Shown here: piece after piece, positions 43,754 to 53,500 of the stretch
Layout of the letters: each line of letters opens with the position of its first letter
Position numbering within the stretch: the first letter of the stretch is position 1
From: Candidatus Nomurabacteria bacterium
GTDB taxonomy: Bacteria > Patescibacteriota > Minisyncoccia > Phycocordibacterales > UBA918
Direction of reading: 5' to 3'
Length of the DNA stretch: 64,000 bases
NCBI GenBank assembly: GCA_023898585.1
Contig: CP060229.1
Span: 594,149 to 658,148 of the forward strand
Notes under the pieces: model-generated
What the model was told of the DNA's origin: nothing
Databases searched by the model: none
What the model saw: only the letters and a program-made list of their open reading frames with translations
Position numbers and translations under genes: made by a program

Positions 43754-45694
43754 TTAGGTTTTTTCCACTAGTTCAAAATCCAACTGCCTTTCGTCTTTGT
43801 CGGCACGAACCAGCTTCACACGAACAGCGTCTCCCAGACGATATATCTTTCCGGTACGTTGACCTCTTATTCGGTACTTTTGTGCTTCGTGCTCAAAGAA
43901 ATCACTTTTAATACTCGATAGTCTGACCATGCCGTCAGCCAAAGTGTCTTGTTCTTGTACGTAGATACCCCAGTCGGCTACACCATTTATCACCCCTTCA
44001 AATTCTTCACCGACTCTATTTATCATATACTCGACCTGCTTGAATTTGATGGAATCACGTTCGGCGGACACCGCTTCCATTTCACGTTCTGATGATTGAA
44101 TTGATATTTGTTCGTATTTGGCGGTTTCTTTCGGTCCGATATTTGAGCCGTCAAGATGTCGTCGTAACAGGCGATGAGCCATCAAGTCGGGATAGCGACG
44201 AATGGGGGAAGTGAAGTGAGTGTAATACTTGAAAGCCAATCCAAAGTGGCCAATGTTTTTAGTGGAGTAAATCGCTTTGGCCATGGAGCGGATACTGGCG
44301 GTCTTTATTAAATTTTCCTCCGGCTTACCTTCGACCTCTTTCATTAGTTGGTTGATGGACTTGGCGTGAACGATACCTTTTTTCGCTTCAAAATCGTAAC
44401 CCAATGCGTGAACAAAAGTAGCCAGTTCTTCAATTTTGTCGGGATTGGGAACATCGTGAATACGATAGACAAACGCCAGATCGCGACTTTGGCTTTTGGC
44501 TTTTTTGTTTATGTAGGTTGCTACCTCACGATTAGCAAGAAGCATAAAGTCTTCGATCATGAGCATGGTTTCTGTGCGGTGCTTCACGTAGGCCTTAATA
44601 GGCGCTCCTCTCTCGTCAAGTTCGAACTTTACTTCCGGTTGCTCGAAAGCGATTGCTCCGTCGGCGTAGCGTCTTTTACGGAGAGTTCTTGACAGGCTCA
44701 TTAGAGTCTTTAGTTCCGGCAGATAATCACCTTCATTTTTATCGAGAGTAGTTTGAGCTTCTTCATAACTGTAGCGTTTGTTGGAGTGGATTATTGTTTG
44801 ACCGTACCAGGCATTTTCAATACCGGCTTTGGGCGTGAGTTCAAAGACGGCCGAGAACGCCAACCGGTCTTCATTGGGTCTCAGGGAACAAAGATCATTG
44901 GAAAGCACCTCAGGTAACATCGGAATCACTCTATCCACCAAATAGACAGAAGTTCCGCGTTCTACTGCCTCGTTGTCTAACGGCTCACCTTCGATAACGT
45001 AATGTGAAACATCGGCAATATGAACCCCGACCTCAACATTGCCGTTTTTAAGAATTCTACAAGACAGCGCGTCGTCAAAATCCTTGGCGTCTTTTGGGTC
45101 TATGGTCATGGTGACGACGTCTCGCATGTCGCGACGTTTCGGGTCGGCTATCGCTTCTGCAAAAATCTGCTCTCTTTTTTCATAGATATCGTGGGCGGAT
45201 TTTTGGACGGATTCGGGAAAATCTTTGGAAAAACCGCCGGAGCGAATAATGGCCTGCATTTCGGTTTCGTGGTCCCCGGTCCTGCCCAGTGTCTCGCTGA
45301 TTTTGGCGATGGGTTCTATGTTGGGGCTAGGCCAACTGGAAATCTCAACCGCTACTTTCGTATCGAGATCATTGGTTGTTGCTCCGGGCAAAAGAGGTCG
45401 GATATGGATTCTGTGATTATCCGGTTGGAGATAAAAAACCGTCTTGCTCCCTTCTTGTTTTTCTTTCACCGAACCGATAAGTTCGCGGTGGGCTGACTTT
45501 ATAACTTGCTCAACGGTGCCTTCTTGGCGACGTCCTGATACCTTCTTTTTAAGTTTAATTTTGACAATGTCGCCGTCGAGCGCGAAGCCAAGGGCTTCGC
45601 GCTCGATGACAATATCTTCCGTAAAATCCGGGTGGGAAACAAAACCTGTTCCTTTGCCACGGATCATAATTGCGCCTTCGTAGGTTGTTAACAT
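43754..45694 (-). CDS. rnr: Ribonuclease R / exoribonuclease II family (RNB domain)
   Basis: N-terminal cold-shock-like OB, RNB catalytic region (DPKDAKDFDDALS) and C-terminal S1. Confidence 0.85.
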   Translation of the reverse strand: MLTTYEGAIMIRGKGTGFVSHPDFTEDIVIEREALGFALDGDIVKIKLKKKVSGRRQEGTVEQVIKSAHRELIGSVKEKQEGSKTVFYLQPDNHRIHIRPLLPGATTNDLDTKVAVEISSWPSPNIEPIAKISETLGRTGDHETEMQAIIRSGGFSKDFPESVQKSAHDIYEKREQIFAEAIADPKRRDMRDVVTMTIDPKDAKDFDDALSCRILKNGNVEVGVHIADVSHYVIEGEPLDNEAVERGTSVYLVDRVIPMLPEVLSNDLCSLRPNEDRLAFSAVFELTPKAGIENAWYGQTIIHSNKRYSYEEAQTTLDKNEGDYLPELKTLMSLSRTLRKRRYADGAIAFEQPEVKFELDERGAPIKAYVKHRTETMLMIEDFMLLANREVATYINKKAKSQSRDLAFVYRIHDVPNPDKIEELATFVHALGYDFEAKKGIVHAKSINQLMKEVEGKPEENLIKTASIRSMAKAIYSTKNIGHFGLAFKYYTHFTSPIRRYPDLMAHRLLRRHLDGSNIGPKETAKYEQISIQSSEREMEAVSAERDSIKFKQVEYMINRVGEEFEGVINGVADWGIYVQEQDTLADGMVRLSSIKSDFFEHEAQKYRIRGQRTGKIYRLGDAVRVKLVRADKDERQLDFELVEKT

Positions 45695-45746
45695 GTCGGC
45701 CAGTATAACACTTGTAAAAAAACATGATAGGGTTTAAAATGCTCAG

Positions 45747-45885
45747 CACCACAAAGTCATGAAAGGGCGTAGTGGTAGGCAACAGTTCCGGGTACCCTCT
45801 GGAACAAACTCTCCCTACAAGGAGATAGCAGTACAAGTCCCGCGTGTTCACCGTCTACAATTTGGTGAACTGCGCGGGGCTTTTT
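45747..45885 (+). ncRNA. Candidate small RNA: sigma70-like promoter (TTGTAA-17-TAAAAT at 45712-45740), about 140-nt hairpin-rich transcript, strong terminator (45839-45885)
   Basis: Promoter hexamers, internal hairpins (GUUCC..GGAAC, UCUCC..GGAGA) and a long terminator CCCGCG..GUUCACC..GGUGAAC..CGCGGG plus TTTTT. Could instead be insulation between the divergent rnr and rpsP promoters. Confidence 0.3.
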
Positions 45886-46018
45886 ATTTTTGCTATTGAC
45901 GTATAGTTCCAATCTGGTATGCTAGCGTCCACTACAAGTGAAGAGAGCGAGCAACGCAGGTAAAAAAGTCTTTGCTTTTGTCGAGCGAGCGAAGCTTGTA
46001 TAAATTTCTCAAATTTCT

Positions 46019-46492
46019 ATGTTAATGATGCGTTTACAACGAGTCGGTCGCAAGAATGATCCATCATTCCGAATTGTGGTGACTGACAAAAGAACCAGTG
46101 TAAAAAGCGACAGGCATGTTGATCGTCTCGGTTCATATAATCCCAAGTCAAATCATATTCAGATTGATGTTGATAGGGCGAAAGAATGGCTGGAAAAAGG
46201 CGTTCAGCCGTCTGACACTATGCACAACATACTGGTTAGCCAAAAGGTGATTGAAGGCAAGAAAATCAATGTTCTTCCGAAGAAATCACCGATTATAGAT
46301 GAGGTAGCAATTAAAAAGGCGGAGGAAGAAGCTAAAGCAAAGGCTGAAGCAGAAGCGAAACTAAAAGCGGAAGCGGAGGAAAAAGTTAAGGAAGAAACCG
46401 AAGCAGAAACTCCCGTAGAACCAGTGGCAGAAGAAAGTTCGGAAGCAGGGGAAGAAAAAGCAGGTAAGGAAGAAGAAAAAATCGAGAAATAG
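46019..46492 (+). CDS. rpsP: Ribosomal protein bS16 with K/E/A-rich C-terminal extension
   Basis: MRLQRVGRKNDPSFRIVVTDKR...RLGSYNP. The start may be 46022 or 46028. Terminator at about 46503-46535. Confidence 0.85.
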   Translation: MLMMRLQRVGRKNDPSFRIVVTDKRTSVKSDRHVDRLGSYNPKSNHIQIDVDRAKEWLEKGVQPSDTMHNILVSQKVIEGKKINVLPKKSPIIDEVAIKKAEEEAKAKAEAEAKLKAEAEEKVKEETEAETPVEPVAEESSEAGEEKAGKEEEKIEK

Positions 46493-46683
46493 TTTGTGAA
46501 GAAAAACGGCCGGGCTAAAGCCCGGCCGTTTTCAATAGACAATAATTAAGTGTGCTCACTGAAAGACATAAAGATTTTTTGCACCTAAGGCTATTGACTC
46601 TCTGAGGCCACTCTCGTATGATTTTGATAGCACGTTGCAAATACTGTAACGGAAGCTTAACAGCTATAGACATAAATCGATGT

Positions 46684-47037
46684 ATGGATACGCACGAAGA
46701 TAAGCAATTTCTTGAGAATTTGGTTAAATCACTGGTTGATCACCCGGATTCGGTCAAAATTAACAGAACAGTCGACGAGATGGGAGTTCTCCTTACTCTC
46801 GATGTGCACGCAGAAGACATGGGAAAGATTATCGGCCGTTCCGGCAACACTGCCAAAGCAATCAGAACTTTGCTTCGAGTGGTGGGAATGAAGAACGACG
46901 CTCGAGTTAATCTCAAGATCAACGAGCCGGAAGGTGGACAACGAATGAATCCAGAAGTAGCTGAGGCTATGAAGGAAGATAATCCTTCCAGCGAACCTAA
47001 AAGCTTGGATCAAGCTATAGACGATTTAAAGATTTAA
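46684..47037 (+). CDS. KH-domain RNA-binding protein (YlqC/UPF0109-like), canonical rpsP neighbour
   Basis: LVKSLVDHPDSVKINRTVDEMGVLLTLDVHAEDMGKIIGRSGNTAKAIRTLL is a type-II KH domain with GxxG. The ORF track starts at 46618; the internal ATG 46684 was chosen. Confidence 0.7.
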   Translation: MDTHEDKQFLENLVKSLVDHPDSVKINRTVDEMGVLLTLDVHAEDMGKIIGRSGNTAKAIRTLLRVVGMKNDARVNLKINEPEGGQRMNPEVAEAMKEDNPSSEPKSLDQAIDDLKI

Positions 47038-47060
47038 ATCCAGGAGAACAAAAGAATACG

Positions 47061-47126
47061 AACAAAAAAGCAATTTACCTATCATTAATGATAGGTAAAT
47101 TGCTTTTTTGTCTATCATTAATGATA
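47061..47126. promoter_or_regulatory. Two operator-like perfect palindromes TATCATTAATGATA (47070-47083, extended to the 32-bp palindrome 47061-47092; and 47113-47126) overlapping the presumed promoter of the HTH gene
   Basis: Exact 14-bp self-complementary sequence read directly. Centres are about 43 bp apart. The second site abuts the start codon at 47137. Confidence 0.6.
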
Positions 47127-47136
47127 TGATTTTGAT

Positions 47137-47586
47137 ATGAGTAAAAATCTTAAACATGTTAAACCAAGTGAGCGAAAACGCGTTATCAATGCGCTCTATA
47201 AAACAGCACGCAGTATGCCCCAGAAAGATCCTGTCGTTACTTTCATTTCCAGTGTTCTCACAGAGAGTGAGCAAGTACTGATCGGGCGCAGACTACTTAT
47301 TGCGCAAATGATACTGGCGGGGAAGAAGCAAACCGAGATTGCTTATGAGTTGGACGTAAGTCCGAACACATTTAGTAGAACCAAGAAATGGCTAAGTGGC
47401 CAGATTCCTGAATATGACAAAGCTCTTAAAGAGTACCGGGCTGAGCAAAATCGATTGAAAGGTGATTCTAAACTTATTCACAGTAACTTCGCAACCCCTT
47501 TTTCGTTCACTGCTCTCAGGAAAAAGTATCCAGCTCACTTTCTTTTGTTTGCATTGATATACCAAGTGAATAAAAAGACTGACTAA
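47137..47586 (+). CDS. TrpR-like / YerC-YecD family helix-turn-helix regulator
   Basis: LTESEQVLIGRRLLIAQMILAGKKQTEIAYELDVSPNTFSRTKKWL matches the Trp-repressor-like YerC pattern (..RL.VA..L..G....EI....G.S..T.SR.K..L). Confidence 0.6.
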   Translation: MSKNLKHVKPSERKRVINALYKTARSMPQKDPVVTFISSVLTESEQVLIGRRLLIAQMILAGKKQTEIAYELDVSPNTFSRTKKWLSGQIPEYDKALKEYRAEQNRLKGDSKLIHSNFATPFSFTALRKKYPAHFLLFALIYQVNKKTD

Positions 47587-47590
47587 TGAC

Positions 47591-47667
47591 TATCATTAAT
47601 GATAGAAAAACTCATCTAATCACCACCTAGTGGCAACTTTAAAAACGTCTATCTATCATTAATGATA
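47591..47667. promoter_or_regulatory. Two further copies of TATCATTAATGATA (47591-47604, 47654-47667) downstream of the HTH gene, before its terminator
   Basis: Exact copies. Centres are about 63 bp apart. Confidence 0.6.
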
Positions 47668-47694
47668 GGTAGTTTGTTTCTAGATTGTGTGAGA

Positions 47695-47724
47695 AGAGCG
47701 CGACCCTTCGGGTCGCGCTTTTTT
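47695..47724 (+). terminator. Intrinsic terminator (AGCGCGACCC-ttcg-GGGTCGCGCT plus TTTTTT) 18 nt before the NADAR gene
   Basis: Perfect 10-bp GC stem, tetraloop and U6. Confidence 0.8.
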
Positions 47725-47742
47725 GTGCTAAGATTTGGAAAT

Positions 47743-48210
47743 ATGTCAGACATTTTTTTAGGCTTGGATTTTGATAAAAATTCAAGCGCACCAATAAACT
47801 TTCTTGAGAATCGATTTCACGATCTGTCACCGTTTTCCGCACTCGAAGTTGAGATTGATGGAGTAAGGTACAAAACAGCTGAACATGCTTATCATGCTTT
47901 ACGTGTGGTCCCTGAAGCACGAACAGAAATCATGAATGCTTCAAGTCCTTTGGAAGCGTGGCGTTTAGCTCAGGTGTGTAAAGAGAAAGACCAGCTAATA
48001 GAACATGATAAAGATGAATTAATGGAGAGAATCTTCCGAGCAAAATTGGCACAGCACGAAAGTGTGAAAGAAGTGTTGTTGCTTACTGGCGAAAGAGAGT
48101 TACTTAAAGTGTTTGATAAAGATTACTATTGGGGAACTGGCTCAGATGGAACTGGTCAAAACAAAATGGGAAAGCTTTGGATGAAACTGCGCGAAGAGAT
48201 ACGAAATTGA
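47743..48210 (+). CDS. NADAR / YbiA-family (DUF1768) protein
   Basis: FLENRFHDLSPFSALEVEIDGVRYKTAEHAYHALRV...AKL fits the YbiA/NADAR pattern (F.......LSNF.....E....Y.S.EH.Y...K). Confidence 0.6.
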   Translation: MSDIFLGLDFDKNSSAPINFLENRFHDLSPFSALEVEIDGVRYKTAEHAYHALRVVPEARTEIMNASSPLEAWRLAQVCKEKDQLIEHDKDELMERIFRAKLAQHESVKEVLLLTGERELLKVFDKDYYWGTGSDGTGQNKMGKLWMKLREEIRN

Positions 48211-48220
48211 CCAACTCTAT

Positions 48221-48757
48221 ATGAATAATTCAGTGAGGTTTATACCATTTTCCAGTAACATAATTTTTTACGACACGGAGTTTTCGTCGCTTGATCCATA
48301 TGTGGGTGAAATCCTGTCCATCGGAGCAGTTAAAATGGATGGTCGGGAGTTTTACTGTGAGCTGGAATACCGTGGTGAATATAGTGAATGGGTCAGAGAA
48401 AACTTATTAGTAACGCTCACCCAACCAAAACTTTCAAGAGAATTAGCCAGACAGAAGCTCTCTGAGTTCGTCGGTAATTCAAAACCTTACGCTCTAGCTT
48501 ACATAAACCAGTTTGATACCATCTATACCAAGAAGCTATTTGTTGGAGAAGGTGAAGAACCCTTCTACTGGTTGCCTTTAGACTTTGCTTCGATTTTGTT
48601 TGGTTTAGGTTATGATCCCGAGGTGTACAAATACGATAACTACACCAAGCTGGCTAAGGATTTGGGAGTTCTTGTGAAAGAGGGGCATACACACAATGCT
48701 TTAGACGACGCCCGTTTTTTAAAGGATGTCTATATGGCATTAATTAACAGAGGTTAA
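48221..48757 (+). CDS. DEDDh 3'-5' exonuclease, oligoribonuclease (Orn)-like
   Basis: Exo I IIFYDTEFSSLD, Exo II YINQFDTIY, Exo III HTHNALDDARFL. Size (178 aa) and block spacing parallel Orn. Confidence 0.65.
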   Translation: MNNSVRFIPFSSNIIFYDTEFSSLDPYVGEILSIGAVKMDGREFYCELEYRGEYSEWVRENLLVTLTQPKLSRELARQKLSEFVGNSKPYALAYINQFDTIYTKKLFVGEGEEPFYWLPLDFASILFGLGYDPEVYKYDNYTKLAKDLGVLVKEGHTHNALDDARFLKDVYMALINRG

Positions 48758-48759
48758 AT

Positions 48760-49434
48760 ATGAATTTTCACATAATCACTATCTTTCCTGAAGTTTGCGA
48801 AGCGTACACGAACGCCAGCGTGCTGGGGCGGGCGCAGAAAACAGAGAAGGGAAAAGGAGCCAAAGTGCGTGGTAAGAAAATTTCGGTCAGTTACTACAAT
48901 CCTCGTGATTATACCGACGACAAGCACAAGAAGGTCGACGACAAACCTTACGGAGGCGGGCCGGGAATGGTGATGAAAGCGGAACCTATTCTTAAGGCGT
49001 GGCAAAAAGCAGTTGGAAGAAAAAAAGATCAGAAAAAAGTGAAAACCCTCATAATGTCCCCTCGCGGTAAACAATTTACCAACGAACTGGCCAAACAATA
49101 TGTCAAAAATTACGACCATCTCGTTCTTATAAGCGGTCGTTATGAAGGTATTGATGCGCGAGTGAAGGAGATTCTCAAAGCCGAGGAGGTGAGTGTCGGT
49201 GACTACATATTAACTGGGGGAGAATTACCCGCCCTTTCTATCGTTGACTCTACCGCGCGTCAAGTAAAAGGGGTGTTAGGCGCCTTTGATTCCCTGGAAG
49301 ACGATCGTGCTACGACCGGAGAAACGTACACCCGTCCTGAGGTGATTGAATACAAAAAGAATAAATTAAAAGTCCCTGATGTTTTTCTCGGGGGCAATCA
49401 CGCAGAGATTGAAAAACGACGAGGTAAAAAGTAA
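48760..49434 (+). CDS. trmD: tRNA (guanine37-N1)-methyltransferase
   Basis: MNFHIITIFPEV...YDHLVLISGRYEGIDARV...ILTGGELPALSIVDS. Contains an inserted K-rich loop. Confidence 0.85.
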   Translation: MNFHIITIFPEVCEAYTNASVLGRAQKTEKGKGAKVRGKKISVSYYNPRDYTDDKHKKVDDKPYGGGPGMVMKAEPILKAWQKAVGRKKDQKKVKTLIMSPRGKQFTNELAKQYVKNYDHLVLISGRYEGIDARVKEILKAEEVSVGDYILTGGELPALSIVDSTARQVKGVLGAFDSLEDDRATTGETYTRPEVIEYKKNKLKVPDVFLGGNHAEIEKRRGKK

Positions 49435-49517
49435 CATGAAATATTACTTCAATAACAACGTAAAAGAGATAATGGCTAAAGGCCGAATGGAGTTTTTGTT
49501 TAGTTAAAATTTAAAAT

Positions 49518-50240
49518 ATGAAAATAATCCTTGGATTCGTAGCAGTGGTTATGGTGGTAGGTTTGTTCGTCTTTATAAATATGGATGCAGACTCTGACTT
49601 GGAAATCGAATCTATAGTCACCACTGAAACGGGAGTAGAAACAGAAGTGGCGTCTTCTATAGAGGGAGATACGCCATCAGTCATGTCGGTAGATGCTAAC
49701 TACGTAGTGGTGGCAGAAAAAAGTGAAATCAATTGGTCCGGCAAAAAGCCTTTAATTGAAGGCTATATAAATTCCGGTTCTCTAGCGGTGAATAAAGGAG
49801 ATGTTTTAGTTTCCGCTGGTACAGCGACAGGGGAATTCGAAATAGACATGAATTCCTTAACTGTGAGCGAAACTAAAGCCAAGCCAGGGAAGGAATCTTT
49901 GTTGGAAAGTCATTTGAAAGGAGAAGGTTGGTTTAGTGTGGCAGAATTTCCTGTCGCCACATTCGAAATCATTGAAGCAACGGCAGATGTGAACGGCGAG
50001 AGCAATACTTACAACGTCCGAGGAGCTTTGACCATGAAGGGACAGACACACGAACTCACATTCCCGGCAGAGATCTATTTGAACAGCGACGGTCAACTGC
50101 AAGCCGATGCTACTTTTGAGTTTGACCGCACCCAGTGGGGAATTACCGCTGGCTCTGGGTCTTTCTTTGATAATCTGGCTGATAACGTTGTTGACGATAT
50201 GGTCTCTCTCACTTTTTCCTTGGTGGCTGAGAAAAAATAG
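49518..50240 (+). CDS. YceI-like periplasmic/lipid-binding domain protein with N-terminal TM anchor
   Basis: INWSGKK...GEFEIDMNSLTV...GEGWFSVAEFPVATF...VRGALTMKGQTHELTF fits the YceI fold pattern. Confidence 0.6.
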   Translation: MKIILGFVAVVMVVGLFVFINMDADSDLEIESIVTTETGVETEVASSIEGDTPSVMSVDANYVVVAEKSEINWSGKKPLIEGYINSGSLAVNKGDVLVSAGTATGEFEIDMNSLTVSETKAKPGKESLLESHLKGEGWFSVAEFPVATFEIIEATADVNGESNTYNVRGALTMKGQTHELTFPAEIYLNSDGQLQADATFEFDRTQWGITAGSGSFFDNLADNVVDDMVSLTFSLVAEKK

Positions 50241-50546
50241 AATTTACGTTTGCTGTCAACAGTCGTTGCTATTGCAAAAACTATAAACTCCTGTATACTT
50301 TCGCCCACAAACGCAAGTCAATGCGATCTCGAATGAGTTCTGGGAGTGAGATACTTTGCCGCGGGGTAAATGAACTTTCCAGCGCAATAATATTTTTTTA
50401 AATGTTATTTTTTGTTGTCAGTTCAAATAAATCACTGTCGTGATGCATTTATTCATCGGGTAAAAATTAAAAGTAAAAAAATGCGCGTCCGCGCGATTTT
50501 TGGGTTGTAGTCAATTCGTTTTATCCAAATTAATTATTTGTTTTTT

Positions 50547-53500
50547 ATGAGCAAAAAAGAACTGTCGGTTGGGCAATTGCCACAAAAGATCTTTGCGAAA
50601 GCTTCGGCGCCTCGTATCCCATTACCTGACCTTATCGAACCGCAACGCGAATCATACAAATGGTTTGTAGAGACTGCACTGAAAGAAATTTTCACTGAGT
50701 TTTCACCTATATCTGATTATTCAGAGAAGAAGTTTGAAATGCAGTTTAAAAAATATGAGCTCGGTGCACCAAAATATTCACCCGAATTCGCTCGTGAAAA
50801 CAAACGCACCTACGAAGCACCCCTGCGTGCAACGGTTGTTTTGAAAAACAAAACTTTCAATAGTGCCAAAGACCAGGAAATCTTCATGTCCGACATCCCG
50901 GTCATGACCGACAATGGAACTTTCATCATAAACGGAGTGGAAAGAGTCATTGTGCCTCAGTTGGCGAGAAGCTACGGTATTTTCTTTACCACCAATGAGT
51001 CTAAAGGAAAAACTTACTTTGGAGCTAAAATCATCCCGGCTCGCGGAGCTTGGGTTGAAATCGAATCCGAAGCCGATGGAATAATTTATGTAAAAATCGA
51101 CCGTAAAAAGAAGTTTCCTATTACTTCACTTCTTAGAGTTTTGGGAGTTGATGAAGACAAAGAAATGGTCAAGCTCATGAAGGGTGTTGAGCGTGGTCCT
51201 GAGTATATCAAGGCTACCTTGGAAAAAGACCCTGCTAAAACCAAAGACGAGGCTTACGTCGAAATCTACAAACGTCTTCGAGATGGTGATTTGGCGACTG
51301 TCGATAATGCCCGAGAATTTGTTGATTCAATATTTTCACCAGAACGTTATGACTTGTCTGAAATCGGTCGTCATCACTTCAATGGACGATTCGGTCTTCC
51401 GACCGACGCGAAAGCAACCGCCGAAAGAACTGTTTCGATTGAGGACTTGCGATTGATAATCACCCAGATCATCAACTCAAATCATGATAATCAGGCTCTG
51501 CCCGACGATATCGACCATCTCGGTTTTCGCCGAGTCAGGTATTTTGGTGAAATGCTTCAACAGCGAGTTCGAGTGGGAATGACTCGCATGAAGCGAAACA
51601 TTCAAGACAGAATGTCTACTATCGAAGCGGAAACGTCACTCCCTATGCAAATAATCAACCCTCGCCCGCTCCAAGCTGCTATCAAAGAATTTTTCACCAC
51701 CAACCAGCTTTCACAGTTTTCTCAGCAACAAAACATCTTGGCTGAAGTTGAGCACCTACGCACACTATCGGCCCTCGGCCCGGGCGGACTCACAAGAGAA
51801 AGAGCCGGTTTTGAAGTGCGTGACGTTCACCCTTCCCACTACGGAAGACTTTGTCCAATCCATACTCCGGAAGGACCGAACATCGGTTTGATCCTTCGGC
51901 TTTCCATGTATTCCCGAGTTAATCGTTTCGGTATTATCGAGACCCCGTACATGAAAGTGGTCAAAGGTAAGTTGACTGATGAAATCGTTTACATGAATGC
52001 TCACGAGGAAGAAGGTCACACTATCGCTCATGCTGCTATCGAGGTTGATGATAAAGGTAAAATCAAAAAGGAATTTGTCGAAGCTAGAATGAAAGGTGAA
52101 CCGAGAGTGGTACCAAGGGAAAATGTTGATTATATCGACGTGGCAACCAACCAGCCGTTTTCTGTCGCGACATCAATGATCCCGTTCTTGAACCACGATG
52201 ACGCCAACCGTACTCTCATGGGTTCAAACATGCAGAAGCAGTCTACACCTTGTGTTATCCAAGAAGCACCGATCGTAGCAACCGGAGTGGAGGGAATGTC
52301 TGCGCGTGATGTCGGTAGAGTGCTCTACGCGGAAGAGGCGGGTGAGGTAACTGTCGCAGACGCTCGAATGATCGTGGTGAAGGGTAAGAGTGGTAAAGGT
52401 AAAGAGTACCCGCTTACGCAATTGCAAAGGACAAATGATTTTTCCGCTTTCCAACATCGACCGGCAGTTTCTGTCGGACAGAAAGTAAAGAGAGGAGACT
52501 TACTTGCCGACACGACTTCGACCGATAACGGTCAGATCGCGGTTGGGCAAAATGCCATGGTGGCGTTTCTGAGCTGGAACGGAGCAAACTACGAAGACGC
52601 GATTATCATTTCCGAAAGATTGGTCAAGAAGAGTAAGTTCTCCAGCATTCACCTTGATGAACTTGAGGTAGCAGTACGAGACACCAAGCTTGGACCGGAA
52701 GTGACCACTCCCGATATTCCCAACGTTTCGGAATTGAAACTGAGAAATTTGGATGAAAGTGGAATAATCAGAATCGGAGCAGAGGTCAGGCCGGGCGATA
52801 TTCTCGTCGGTAAAGTGACTCCGAAAGGCGAAACTCAACTTACCCCCGAGGAGCGATTGTTAAGATCAATCTTTGGAGAAAAGGCTAAAGATGTAAAAGA
52901 TACCTCGCTTCGCTTGGAAGCCGGAAAGAGAGGGCGTGTCATAGGAGTAAAAATCTTTTCCCGAGAAAACGGTGATCAACTGGAAAGCGGTGTTATTAAG
53001 AAAATACATATCACAGTCGCACAAGTTAGAAATGTTTCGGTCGGAGATAAATTAGCTGGTCGTCACGGAAACAAGGGTGTTATCTCTCGAATTCTTCCGG
53101 AGGAAGACATGCCATACACGGAAGATGGTACACCGGTTGATATTCTTTTGACTCCGCTTGGTGTGCCGTCACGTATGAACCTGGGTCAGATTCTTGAGTT
53201 GCATTTAGGAATGGCCGCCAACACCCTTGGCTACCAAGCAATAGTGCCTCCATTTGCCGGAGCTTCGGAAGATGATGTTAAGAAAGAACTGGAAGAAGCC
53301 GGTTTTTCAACCGACGGAAAAATTCAACTGCGAGACGGTCTTACCGGTGAAAAATTTGCACAGAAGACGGCAGTTGGATACATGTATATTCTCAAGCTTC
53401 ATCACATGGTAGAAGACAAAATTCACATGCGATCCATTGGTCCGTACTCACTTATTACCCAACAGCCACTTGGCGGAAAGGCCCAAATCGGCGGACAACG

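What the first reader, a model, noticed from the sequence alone, without database searches (positions are those of the whole stretch)
47061..48757. Three-gene insertion inside the conserved rpsP-KH-(rimM)-trmD ribosomal operon: HTH regulator, NADAR, Orn-like exonuclease; rimM absent
The near-universal order rpsP, ylqC(KH), rimM, trmD is interrupted between the KH gene and trmD. The inserted genes are a YerC/TrpR-like HTH gene flanked by four identical palindromes, a NADAR/YbiA-family gene, and a DEDDh oligoribonuclease-like exonuclease. No rimM is present. NADAR enzymes process ADP-ribose or N-glycosidic adducts. In one recently described toxin-antitoxin pairing NADAR reverses nucleic-acid ADP-ribosylation, and Orn-like enzymes clear short oligonucleotides or dinucleotide messengers. 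Regulator, nucleotide-adduct hydrolase and nanoRNase together in a translation operon hint at an uncharacterised RNA or nucleotide-damage repair or signalling cassette.
Basis: partly seen in the sequence, partly recalled or inferred. Interest (0 to 1): 0.6.

Follow-up and report, generated by a model that had tools for sequence, protein, structure and literature searches.

The report
Variable gene slot ahead of trmD
In this tiny-genome (CPR/Patescibacteria) bacterium the gap between the KH gene and trmD is a lineage-specific slot where relatives carry different mixes of small nucleotide/RNA hydrolase genes, plus here a separate self-regulating repressor gene, so it is not a fixed three-gene repair cassette, and the missing rimM is a known trait of the whole group.

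Summary
Three genes lie between the KH gene and trmD: a TrpR-like HTH (47137-47586), a NADAR (true start 47743, to 48210) and a DEDDh exonuclease (48221-48757). Four copies of CTATCATTAATGATAG flank the HTH gene, and no rimM is present.

- rimM loss is CPR-wide and published. 23 more distant CPR relatives have KH and trmD less than 200 bp apart.
- In the window's own family the KH-trmD gap is a variable slot. It can be empty or hold Nudix alone (commonest), NADAR alone, NADAR-EXO, NADAR-EXO-Nudix, Nudix-EXO, HTH alone or HTH-Nudix, and rarely other cargo.
- The HTH is an independent unit. It sits upstream of a conserved terminator and leaderless promoter that heads the trmD unit. Its homologues occur elsewhere in other genomes and are always bracketed by the same palindromes, one overlapping their own -10 element. 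This fits an autorepressor, not the regulator of NADAR-EXO.
- The exonuclease is closest to RNase AS and RNase T, not to Orn.
- The NADAR is YbiA-like, but Lys replaces the family-defining Glu.

NADAR and EXO do recur together in four lineages, always next to trmD. A shared RNA or ADP-ribose clean-up role remains possible but unproven. Interest is modest.

The parts
46019..46492 (+). rpsP (ribosomal protein S16) with a long Lys/Glu/Ala-rich C-terminal tail
   Evidence: Pfam Ribosomal_S16 E 5.2e-17
46503..46532 (+). GC-rich hairpin between rpsP and the KH gene (terminator-like)
   Evidence: Perfect 14-nt inverted repeat. RNA fold -25.3 kcal/mol, z -6.2
46684..47037 (+). khpA/ylqC-like KH-domain gene (an alternative upstream start is at 46618)
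   Evidence: Pfam KH_KhpA-B E 2.4e-21. The MAG annotation aa
47062..47111 (.). 50-nt perfect palindrome (A-run, stem, T-run) with operator site 1 (47079-47094) at its tip. It probably acts as a terminator after KH
   Evidence: RNA fold -30.7 kcal/mol, z -12.5
47112..47130 (+). Operator site 2 (CTATCATTAATGATA, 47112-47126) overlapping the extended -10 element TGATATGAT (47122-47130), 6 nt before the HTH ATG
   Evidence: The same overlap is seen in L020, L013 and L184
47137..47586 (+). TrpR-like HTH gene (149 aa) with a conserved C-terminal KKYPxHFLLF motif. Inferred autorepressor
   Evidence: Pfam Trp_repressor 39.1 bits. Weak matches to PDB TrpR-like proteins. Family alignment
47590..47605 (.). 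Operator site 3, 4 nt after the HTH stop codon
   Evidence: A palindrome right after the stop codon is seen in all 7 HTH loci examined
47653..47668 (.). Operator site 4
   Evidence: Hairpin -12.6 kcal/mol
47692..47725 (+). GC-rich intrinsic terminator. It is the counterpart of the terminator that follows KH directly in relatives
   Evidence: RNA fold -24.9 kcal/mol followed by a T-run. The position is conserved in about 25 loci
47726..47734 (+). Extended -10 element TGCTAAGAT, 8 nt before the NADAR ATG. Inferred leaderless promoter of the trmD unit
   Evidence: TGnTAnnnT followed by 6-9 nt and ATG is conserved upstream of whichever gene comes first after KH in relatives. It is also seen at many gene starts in the window
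47743..48210 (+). NADAR gene (155 aa), YbiA-like, with Lys in place of the family Glu
   Evidence: Pfam NADAR 80 bits. E. coli YbiA 2b3w E 1.6e-20. Residue mapping
48221..48757 (+). DEDDh 3'-5' exonuclease (178 aa), like RNase AS and RNase T
   Evidence: AlphaFold model pLDDT 90.6. Best Foldseek match 4oke, RNase AS, E 1.6e-8
48760..49434 (+). trmD, starting 2 nt after the exonuclease stop codon
   Evidence: Pfam tRNA_m1G_MT E 1.1e-41

Best explanation
The window comes from a Paceibacteria-class CPR genome. It matches GCA_020428745.1 exactly, and NCBI labels it Candidatus Kaiserbacteria.

In this family the ancestral rpsP-KH-rimM-trmD operon has lost rimM, as in CPR generally. It has also been split by a terminator followed immediately by a leaderless-type promoter (TGnTAnnnT, then 6-9 nt, then ATG). 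The position between that promoter and trmD is a fluid cargo slot. Different species carry nothing there, or various combinations of three small hydrolase genes (NADAR, a DEDDh exonuclease, a Nudix hydrolase), and occasionally other genes.

In the window the slot holds NADAR and the exonuclease. They are packed against trmD with gaps of 10 and 2 nt, so they are presumably co-transcribed with it (inferred).

The HTH gene is a second, independent insertion upstream of the conserved terminator. It is a self-contained unit whose product most likely binds the 16-bp palindromes as a dimer. One operator overlaps its own -10 element, which would give autorepression. Others lie right after its stop codon, which could allow looping or insulation. 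All of this is inferred.

Likely activities, inferred from family membership only:
- NADAR would be an N-glycosidase acting on ADP-ribosyl or ribosyl adducts, with altered chemistry because of the Glu-to-Lys change.
- The exonuclease would trim RNA 3' ends or short RNAs.

The genes are housekeeping-type accessories riding on a constitutive promoter, not a dedicated regulated cassette.
For: Synteny in 24 close species (TrmD 73-85% identical) shows RNase R(-)/rpsP/KH/[60-1700 bp]/trmD/rpoB.

Slot contents:
- Essentially empty in L009, L021 and L025.
- A Nudix gene in 16 loci.
- HTH only in L013, and HTH plus Nudix in L020.
- NADAR in L023.

Targeted look-ups add:
- NADAR-EXO-Nudix (L087; L095).
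- NADAR-EXO (L096).
- Nudix-EXO (L090).
- KH-NADAR-trmD (L175, L178, L180).

A rough NJ tree shows the combinations scattered across the family. Identities of the cargo proteins do not track TrmD identity (Nudix rho -0.09 over 153 pairs).

The terminator plus TGnTAnnnT plus ATG module is conserved upstream of whichever gene is first. The same promoter type is seen at about 12 other real gene starts in the window.

HTH homologues in four genomic contexts are always bracketed by ATCAT-NN-ATGAT palindromes, with the proximal one at the -10 element.

The three-gene region has the lowest GC of any 1.7-kb stretch of the window: 39.3% against 44.2 +/- 2.2%.

rimM is nearly absent in CPR (PMC6744442, PMC12641178).
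Against: - NADAR and EXO do recur together and in the same order (NADAR before EXO, before Nudix when present) in four lineages with EXO identities of 59-82%. This is more than a purely random slot would give and could reflect a functional unit or an ancestral operon.
- Most cargo families seen in the slot (NADAR, DEDDh, Nudix, CYTH, AAA_33 kinase, NYN) act on nucleotides or RNA ends. This hints at a theme.
- Promoters, terminators, co-transcription and repressor binding are all inferred from sequence. No transcript or binding data exist.
- Sampling of NADAR and EXO contexts was targeted, so the frequencies are biased.
- The tree is rough.
Confidence: 0.75

Rival explanations
1. First reader's reading. 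HTH, NADAR and the exonuclease form one regulated cassette for repair of RNA or nucleotide damage, or for signalling. The HTH would be its regulator, inserted into the translation operon.
For: The three genes are adjacent and co-directional. Palindromes lie on both sides of the HTH gene, and two of them lie between HTH and NADAR. The region has low GC as a block.
Against: - A -24.9 kcal/mol terminator and a conserved promoter separate HTH from NADAR.
- The same HTH-plus-palindromes unit precedes trmD directly (L013) or Nudix (L020). It also sits between dnaG/rpoD and rpoC, or after uvrD, in other genomes.
- NADAR-EXO occurs without HTH in L087, L095 and L096.
- No genome other than the window's own has all three genes together.
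Confidence: 0.06
2. NADAR, the DEDDh exonuclease and Nudix form a genuine functional set tied to trmD, ancestral to this family and since lost piecemeal. For example, it could remove ADP-ribosyl or other ribosyl adducts from guanines of tRNA or RNA (NADAR), dispose of the released ADP-ribose or nucleotide (Nudix), and trim damaged 3' ends (exonuclease).
For: - The order NADAR-EXO-Nudix recurs immediately upstream of trmD in two deep branches (L087, L095). Subsets keep the same order.
- Gene spacing is tight.
- All close homologues of NADAR (67-75% identity) and EXO (59% or more) that were looked up lie in this slot.
- NADARs, including YbiA, reverse guanosine ADP-ribosylation on RNA and DNA in vitro (PMC11125620, PMC11833690).
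- NADAR and Nudix co-occur more than expected in DNA viruses (PMC9503650).
- E. coli has a stand-alone NADAR inside the rpsU-dnaG-rpoD operon (PMC11125620).
Against: - Each gene also occurs alone, and most species have Nudix only or nothing.
- The order is reversed in L090 (Nudix before EXO).
- Cargo identities do not correlate with TrmD identity.
- Nudix copies are as little as 34% identical to one another.
- Distant EXO homologues have no conserved partner.
- No ADP-ribosyltransferase gene was noticed among the neighbouring genes.
- The NADAR has Lys at the position of the Glu or Asp needed for guanine de-ADP-ribosylation (PMC11543638).
Confidence: 0.22
3. The block is a recent horizontally acquired or mobile island, from a phage or another element, that landed in the operon.
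For: It has the lowest GC in the window. Its distribution in the family is patchy. NADAR and Rv2179c-like exonucleases are common in phages (PMC9503650). Palindromes bracket the HTH gene, and that unit is found in several genomic contexts.
Against: - No integrase, transposase or tRNA target is present, and no flanking direct repeats were found beyond the operators.
- The HTH gave one weak viral hit only, and the palindrome occurs only singly in viral contigs.
- The closest NADAR and EXO homologues all sit in the same chromosomal slot of related genomes.
Confidence: 0.1

Closest known systems
E. coli YbiA and the YbiA subfamily of NADAR (PDB 2b3w)
   Same: It is the best sequence match: E 1.6e-20 for the single sequence and 2.6e-52 for the profile. 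It is a single-domain protein of about 155 aa. E47, H48, D127 and W130 are conserved.
   Different: The Glu that defines the YbiA subfamily (E125 in P. nicotianae NADAR numbering) is Lys122 here and in the close CPR homologues. Only 15 of the 150 nearest cluster representatives have Lys there. The Lys paired with the catalytic Glu is Arg54. The protein scores 73.6 against a cut-off of 73.7 for TIGR02464. The genomic context is trmD rather than the LexA-controlled dinG operon.
The sigma70-linked stand-alone NADAR in the rpsU-dnaG-rpoD operon of pathogenic E. coli (PMC11125620)
   Same: It is a stand-alone NADAR embedded in a conserved information-processing operon, with no toxin partner.
   Different: The operon, the NADAR subtype and the phylum are all different. 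Here the NADAR is accompanied in some species by a DEDDh exonuclease and/or a Nudix gene.
RNase AS (M. tuberculosis Rv2179c, PDB 4oke) and RNase T
   Same: These are the best sequence and structure matches for the exonuclease. It shares the DEDDh catalytic set and a size of about 175 aa.
   Different: Identity is only about 24%. It scores 34.8 bits against a cut-off of 200 for the NCBIfam RNase_AS equivalog. The substrate is unknown.
Oligoribonuclease Orn
   Same: It shares the DEDDh fold and a similar size.
   Different: There is no sequence match at E <= 1, and the Orn-type structure 2gbz ranks only 47th.
TrpR and the YerC/YecD family of HTH proteins
   Same: The Pfam Trp_repressor match is above its cut-off. 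The operator is palindromic and is centred, like the trp operator as I recall it, on TTAA.
   Different: The protein falls below the cut-offs of the TrpR and YerC/YecD equivalogs. It has an extra conserved C-terminal segment (PFSF..L.KKYPxHFLLF). Operators bracket the ORF at its start and its stop, often at the tips of long hairpins.
The canonical rpsP-(ylqC/khpA)-rimM-trmD-rplS operon
   Same: rpsP, KH and trmD keep their order and strand.
   Different: rimM is lost, as in CPR generally. Terminators and promoters lie between the genes. A variable cargo slot lies ahead of trmD. rpoB, rather than rplS, follows downstream.

Membership tests
NADAR superfamily (PF08719) | Match to the NADAR domain model above the gathering score | tested here: met
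   80 bits against a cut-off of 35.1. YbiA 2b3w E 1.6e-20.
YbiA subfamily of NADAR | A conserved Glu equivalent to E125 of P. nicotianae NADAR. It is replaced by Asp in the BC4488/DarT1-linked subfamily and by His in phage NADARs (PMC11543638) | tested here: not met
   Lys122 aligns to that Glu in both the YbiA and the 8bau alignments. Lys is nearly invariant in the CPR clade and rare (15 of 150) among the nearest representatives.
DarT1-NADAR toxin-antitoxin pair | An adjacent DarT or other ADP-ribosyltransferase gene | tested here: not met
   The neighbours are the HTH, exonuclease and trmD genes. No PADLOC hit for the NADAR.
NADAR guanine-ADP-ribose hydrolase activity | Hydrolysis of ADP-ribosyl-guanine on DNA or RNA | not testable with these tools
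   This needs biochemistry. The catalytic E47 is present, but the second acidic residue is replaced.
DEDDh (DnaQ-like) exonucleases | Exo I DxE, Exo II D and Exo III H-x4-D motifs | tested here: met
   D18, E20, D99, H158 and D163 are invariant in 30 homologues. The confident model (pLDDT 90.6) matches DEDDh structures.
Oligoribonuclease (Orn) | Sequence or structural closeness to Orn | tested here: not met
   No Orn chain at E <= 1 by sequence. Orn 2gbz ranks 47th by structure, behind RNase AS, Cap18 and RNase T. No Orn model appears among the NCBIfam hits.
RNase AS (NF033638) | Score above the equivalog cut-off | tested here: not met
   34.8 bits against 200. It is the closest relative but not an orthologue.
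TrpR-like HTH (PF01371) | Match above the gathering score | tested here: met
   39.1 bits against 27.
YerC/YecD (TIGR02531) | Score above the cut-off | tested here: not met
   21.2 bits against 42.2. The protein is about 50 aa longer and has an extra conserved C-terminal motif.
Autoregulated repressor | An operator overlapping the gene's own promoter, and protein binding to it | tested here: inconclusive
   The palindrome overlaps a predicted extended -10 element in the window, L020, L013 and L184. Binding and the transcription start site were not tested.
Conserved functional gene cassette (HTH-NADAR-EXO) | Co-occurrence of the three genes across related genomes | tested here: not met
   The trio is seen only in the window's own genome. 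The genes occur separately or in other combinations in relatives.

The most novel reading that the evidence does not exclude
In one family of CPR bacteria, the head of the trmD transcription unit expresses a modular clean-up kit for RNA or ADP-ribose. Its parts are a Lys-variant NADAR with a new specificity, an RNase AS/T-like exonuclease and a Nudix hydrolase. The kit would protect tRNA or rRNA guanines, or clear nucleotide signals, against ADP-ribosylating toxins met during the episymbiotic lifestyle. Species would keep whichever modules they need.
Probability: 0.1. Interest if true: 0.65.

Novelty: new member of a known kind. Interest (0 to 1): 0.3.

Why it matters
The result mainly corrects the reading of the locus. 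What looks like a striking disruption of a near-universal ribosomal operon is, in this lineage, normal. rimM is gone from CPR as a whole, and the KH-trmD junction has become a promoter-proximal parking place for small accessory genes.

Three points could be followed up:
- NADAR, an RNase AS/T-like exonuclease and Nudix recur next to trmD. This gives a concrete, testable lead on what stand-alone NADARs do, since their physiological substrates are still unknown.
- The NADAR clade has Lys in place of the catalytic-site Glu.
- The small TrpR-like repressor family has operators that clamp its own ORF at start and stop. Together with the apparently widespread leaderless promoters, it offers a simple handle on transcription control in uncultivated CPR bacteria.

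Tried and rejected
- I searched the viral contig collection for the 14-bp palindrome. It gave only single, scattered occurrences, as expected by chance for an AT-rich 14-mer. No clusters were found.
- I searched viral contigs for HTH relatives. There was one weak partial hit, so no phage link.
- The Rfam scan of 45600-50600 at E <= 1 gave only sub-threshold chance matches to hairpins. There is no known RNA element.
- PADLOC gave nothing for the HTH or NADAR. The exonuclease and Nudix gave only generic or weak hits (a DEDDh model, an exonuclease-effector model, PDC-S07). There is no support for a known defence system.
- I looked for flanking direct repeats or target-site duplications around the inserts. 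Nothing convincing was found beyond the operators and one identical 13-mer shared by the KH and HTH promoter regions.
- I tested vertical inheritance by correlating cargo identity with TrmD identity. There was no correlation, but TrmD identity spans a narrow range, so power is low.
- I considered that the GC-rich hairpin at 47692-47725 might be an attenuator for NADAR. I rejected this because the same terminator-plus-promoter module follows KH directly in relatives that lack the HTH.
- I considered the long ORF start at 47662 for NADAR. I rejected it because it would read through operator site 4 and the terminator, and because homologues and the MAG annotation start at the equivalent of 47743.
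Full report
**What is there**

The region 46019-49434 encodes six genes on the + strand:
- rpsP (46019-46492)
- a KhpA-type KH protein (46684-47037)
- a TrpR-like HTH protein (47137-47586)
- a NADAR protein (47743-48210)
- a DEDDh exonuclease (48221-48757)
- trmD (48760-49434)

RNase R is divergent upstream, and YceI and rpoB lie downstream.

The palindrome core TATCATTAATGATA occurs four times, twice before and twice after the HTH gene. It occurs nowhere else in the 64 kb even with two mismatches allowed. The chance expectation is 0.28, and 0 of 100 shuffles reached 4.

The window is identical to a contig of MAG GCA_020428745.1. Its relatives are Paceibacteria-class CPR bacteria.

**rimM**

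In 23 more distant CPR loci (TrmD 41-55% identical) KH and trmD are less than 200 bp apart, which leaves no room for rimM. A RimM profile built from four non-CPR loci recovers RimM in six non-CPR loci. It finds nothing in the window or in any CPR locus.

Two published surveys state that rimM is missing in most CPR genomes (PMC6744442) and nearly absent in CPR against more than 90% of other bacteria (PMC12641178). The absence is a known lineage trait, not a feature of this locus.

**The slot**

Among 24 species with TrmD 73-85% identical to the window's, the frame RNase R(-)/rpsP/KH/.../trmD/.../rpoB is constant. The KH-trmD distance ranges from about 60 to 1700 bp.

| Slot content | Loci |
|---|---|
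| Essentially empty | L009, L021, L025 |
| ~143-aa Nudix (commonest, 16 loci) | 16 loci |
| HTH alone | L013 |
| HTH plus Nudix | L020 |
| NADAR alone (L023 also carries an unknown membrane ORF) | L023, L175, L178, L180 |
| NADAR-EXO | L096 |
| NADAR-EXO-Nudix | L087, L095 |
| Nudix-EXO | L090 |

Singletons also occur: CYTH, an AAA_33 kinase on the other strand, and unknown membrane proteins.

The exonuclease was absent from the slot in all of the species representatives. The NADAR-EXO combinations and the KH-NADAR-trmD loci L175, L178 and L180 come from targeted look-ups of closer homologues.

No genome other than the window's own has HTH, NADAR and EXO together. On a rough concatenated-protein tree the combinations are scattered. 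Identities of the cargo proteins do not follow TrmD identity.

About 75 more distant exonuclease homologues (48-57% identity) from metagenomes lie in varied contexts. They have no conserved neighbour and no NADAR or trmD nearby.

The three-gene block has the lowest GC of any 1.7-kb stretch in the window.

**Transcription architecture (inferred)**

In relatives, whichever gene comes first after KH is preceded by a GC-rich hairpin with a T-run. This is followed at once by TGnTAnnnT (consensus TGCTAGGAT), and the ATG lies 6-9 nt further on. In the window this module is the hairpin at 47692-47725 (-24.9 kcal/mol), TGCTAAGAT at 47726-47734 and the NADAR ATG at 47743.

The same motif-to-ATG spacing is found at about a dozen other real gene starts in the window, including RNase R and the HTH gene. 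This suggests widespread leaderless transcription.

NADAR, the exonuclease and trmD are separated by 10 and 2 nt. They therefore look like one unit driven by the conserved trmD promoter. The HTH gene lies upstream of the conserved terminator and so outside that unit.

**The HTH unit**

The 50-nt perfect palindrome at 47062-47111 (-30.7 kcal/mol, flanked by A and T runs) carries operator 1 at its tip. It probably terminates KH transcription.

Operator 2 overlaps the predicted extended -10 element TGATATGAT, 6 nt before the HTH ATG. Operator 3 begins 4 nt after the stop codon.

In seven HTH loci from different species, the ORF is bracketed in the same way by ATCAT-NN-ATGAT palindromes. These loci cover three further genomic contexts: between dnaG/rpoD and rpoC, after uvrD, and downstream of rpoB. 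The palindromes are often extended into long hairpins with unrelated arms.

The family is small, with 38 homologues. It shares a conserved C-terminal motif that TrpR and YerC lack.

The simplest reading is a dimeric autorepressor with promoter-occluding and auxiliary operators. Nothing ties it to NADAR or the exonuclease.

**The enzymes**

*NADAR.* It matches E. coli YbiA (E 1.6e-20). It keeps E47, H48, D127 and W130. Arg replaces the Lys seven residues after the catalytic Glu. Lys122 stands where the YbiA subfamily has its defining Glu. Among the 150 nearest cluster representatives, 117 have Glu and 15 have Lys at that position, and the Lys group includes the closest relatives. According to PMC11543638 the equivalent acidic residue is needed for guanine de-ADP-ribosylation by the DarT1-linked enzyme. 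The activity of this clade is therefore uncertain.

*Exonuclease.* It has all the DEDDh residues and a confident model. Its best structural matches are RNase AS, Cap18 and RNase T, and an Orn structure ranks only 47th. By sequence it hits RNase AS weakly and does not hit Orn. 'Orn-like' is therefore not supported beyond the shared fold.

**Verdict**

The locus is a lineage-specific cargo slot ahead of trmD, plus an unrelated self-regulating HTH gene.

The recurring NADAR-EXO(-Nudix) neighbourhood is real. It has precedents in the literature: a stand-alone NADAR in the E. coli rpsU-dnaG-rpoD operon (PMC11125620), NADAR activity on ADP-ribosylated RNA (PMC11833690), and NADAR/Nudix co-occurrence in viruses (PMC9503650).

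Even so, the genes are separable, and no toxin partner or conserved regulator accompanies them. A shared pathway remains a minority hypothesis. All proteins belong to known families, so interest is modest.

Noticed in passing
window 2109, 5071(-), 5852, 22348(-), 33873, 35204, 37381, 39449, 45694(-), 47137, 47743, 57554; also L007-L030 upstream of the first gene after KH: An extended -10-like motif TGnTAnnnT lies 6-9 nt before the start codon of many genes. This suggests that leaderless mRNAs are common in this CPR genome and family.
   Followed up: partly
L184 3916-4533; L182 4691-4716; L008 16095-16596; L013 3845-4530; L020 6950-7501: Every homologue of the HTH gene examined is bracketed by ATCAT-NN-ATGAT palindromes, about 10 nt before its start and just after its stop. 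These often sit at the tips of 30-50-nt perfect hairpins whose arms differ between sites. The unit sits in at least four genomic contexts, which hints at mobility or gene-insulating looping.
   Followed up: partly
window 47437-47586 (C-terminal third of the HTH protein): There is a conserved C-terminal motif PFSF..L.KKYPxHFLLF that TrpR and YerC lack. Its function is unknown.
   Followed up: no
window 46617-46629 and 47125-47137: An identical 13-mer TATGATTTTGATA occurs at the promoter-like site upstream of the KH gene and at the HTH promoter and start. It could reflect a shared promoter type or a trace of how the HTH unit was inserted.
   Followed up: no
L003, L004, L005 (contig ends about 56 nt upstream of the HTH gene): Several independent metagenome assemblies of this organism break inside the palindrome region. 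The repeated hairpins evidently disrupt assembly.
   Followed up: no
window 46260-46492: rpsP encodes 157 aa, roughly twice the usual S16 length, because of a low-complexity Lys/Glu/Ala-rich C-terminal tail. The KH protein also has an acidic C-terminal extension.
   Followed up: no
L017 7015-7578; L030 7330-7890(-); L036 7285-7902; L037 7213-7929; L061 1869-3293: Other cargo is found in the KH-trmD gap of relatives: CYTH, an AAA_33 P-loop kinase, an NYN nuclease, Peptidase_M15 and an AAA_14/DUF4143 ATPase. Several of these act on nucleotides or RNA ends.
   Followed up: partly
window 46503-46532: A strong terminator-like hairpin (-25.3 kcal/mol) and a sigma-70-like promoter (46594-46622) lie between rpsP and the KH gene. 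Even rpsP and KH may therefore not be co-transcribed here.
   Followed up: no
L018 1735-1746: A single copy of the same palindrome, within aaaatcttattttATCATTAATGATaaaataaga, lies just downstream of trmD in a relative where no HTH homologue was detected nearby.
   Followed up: no
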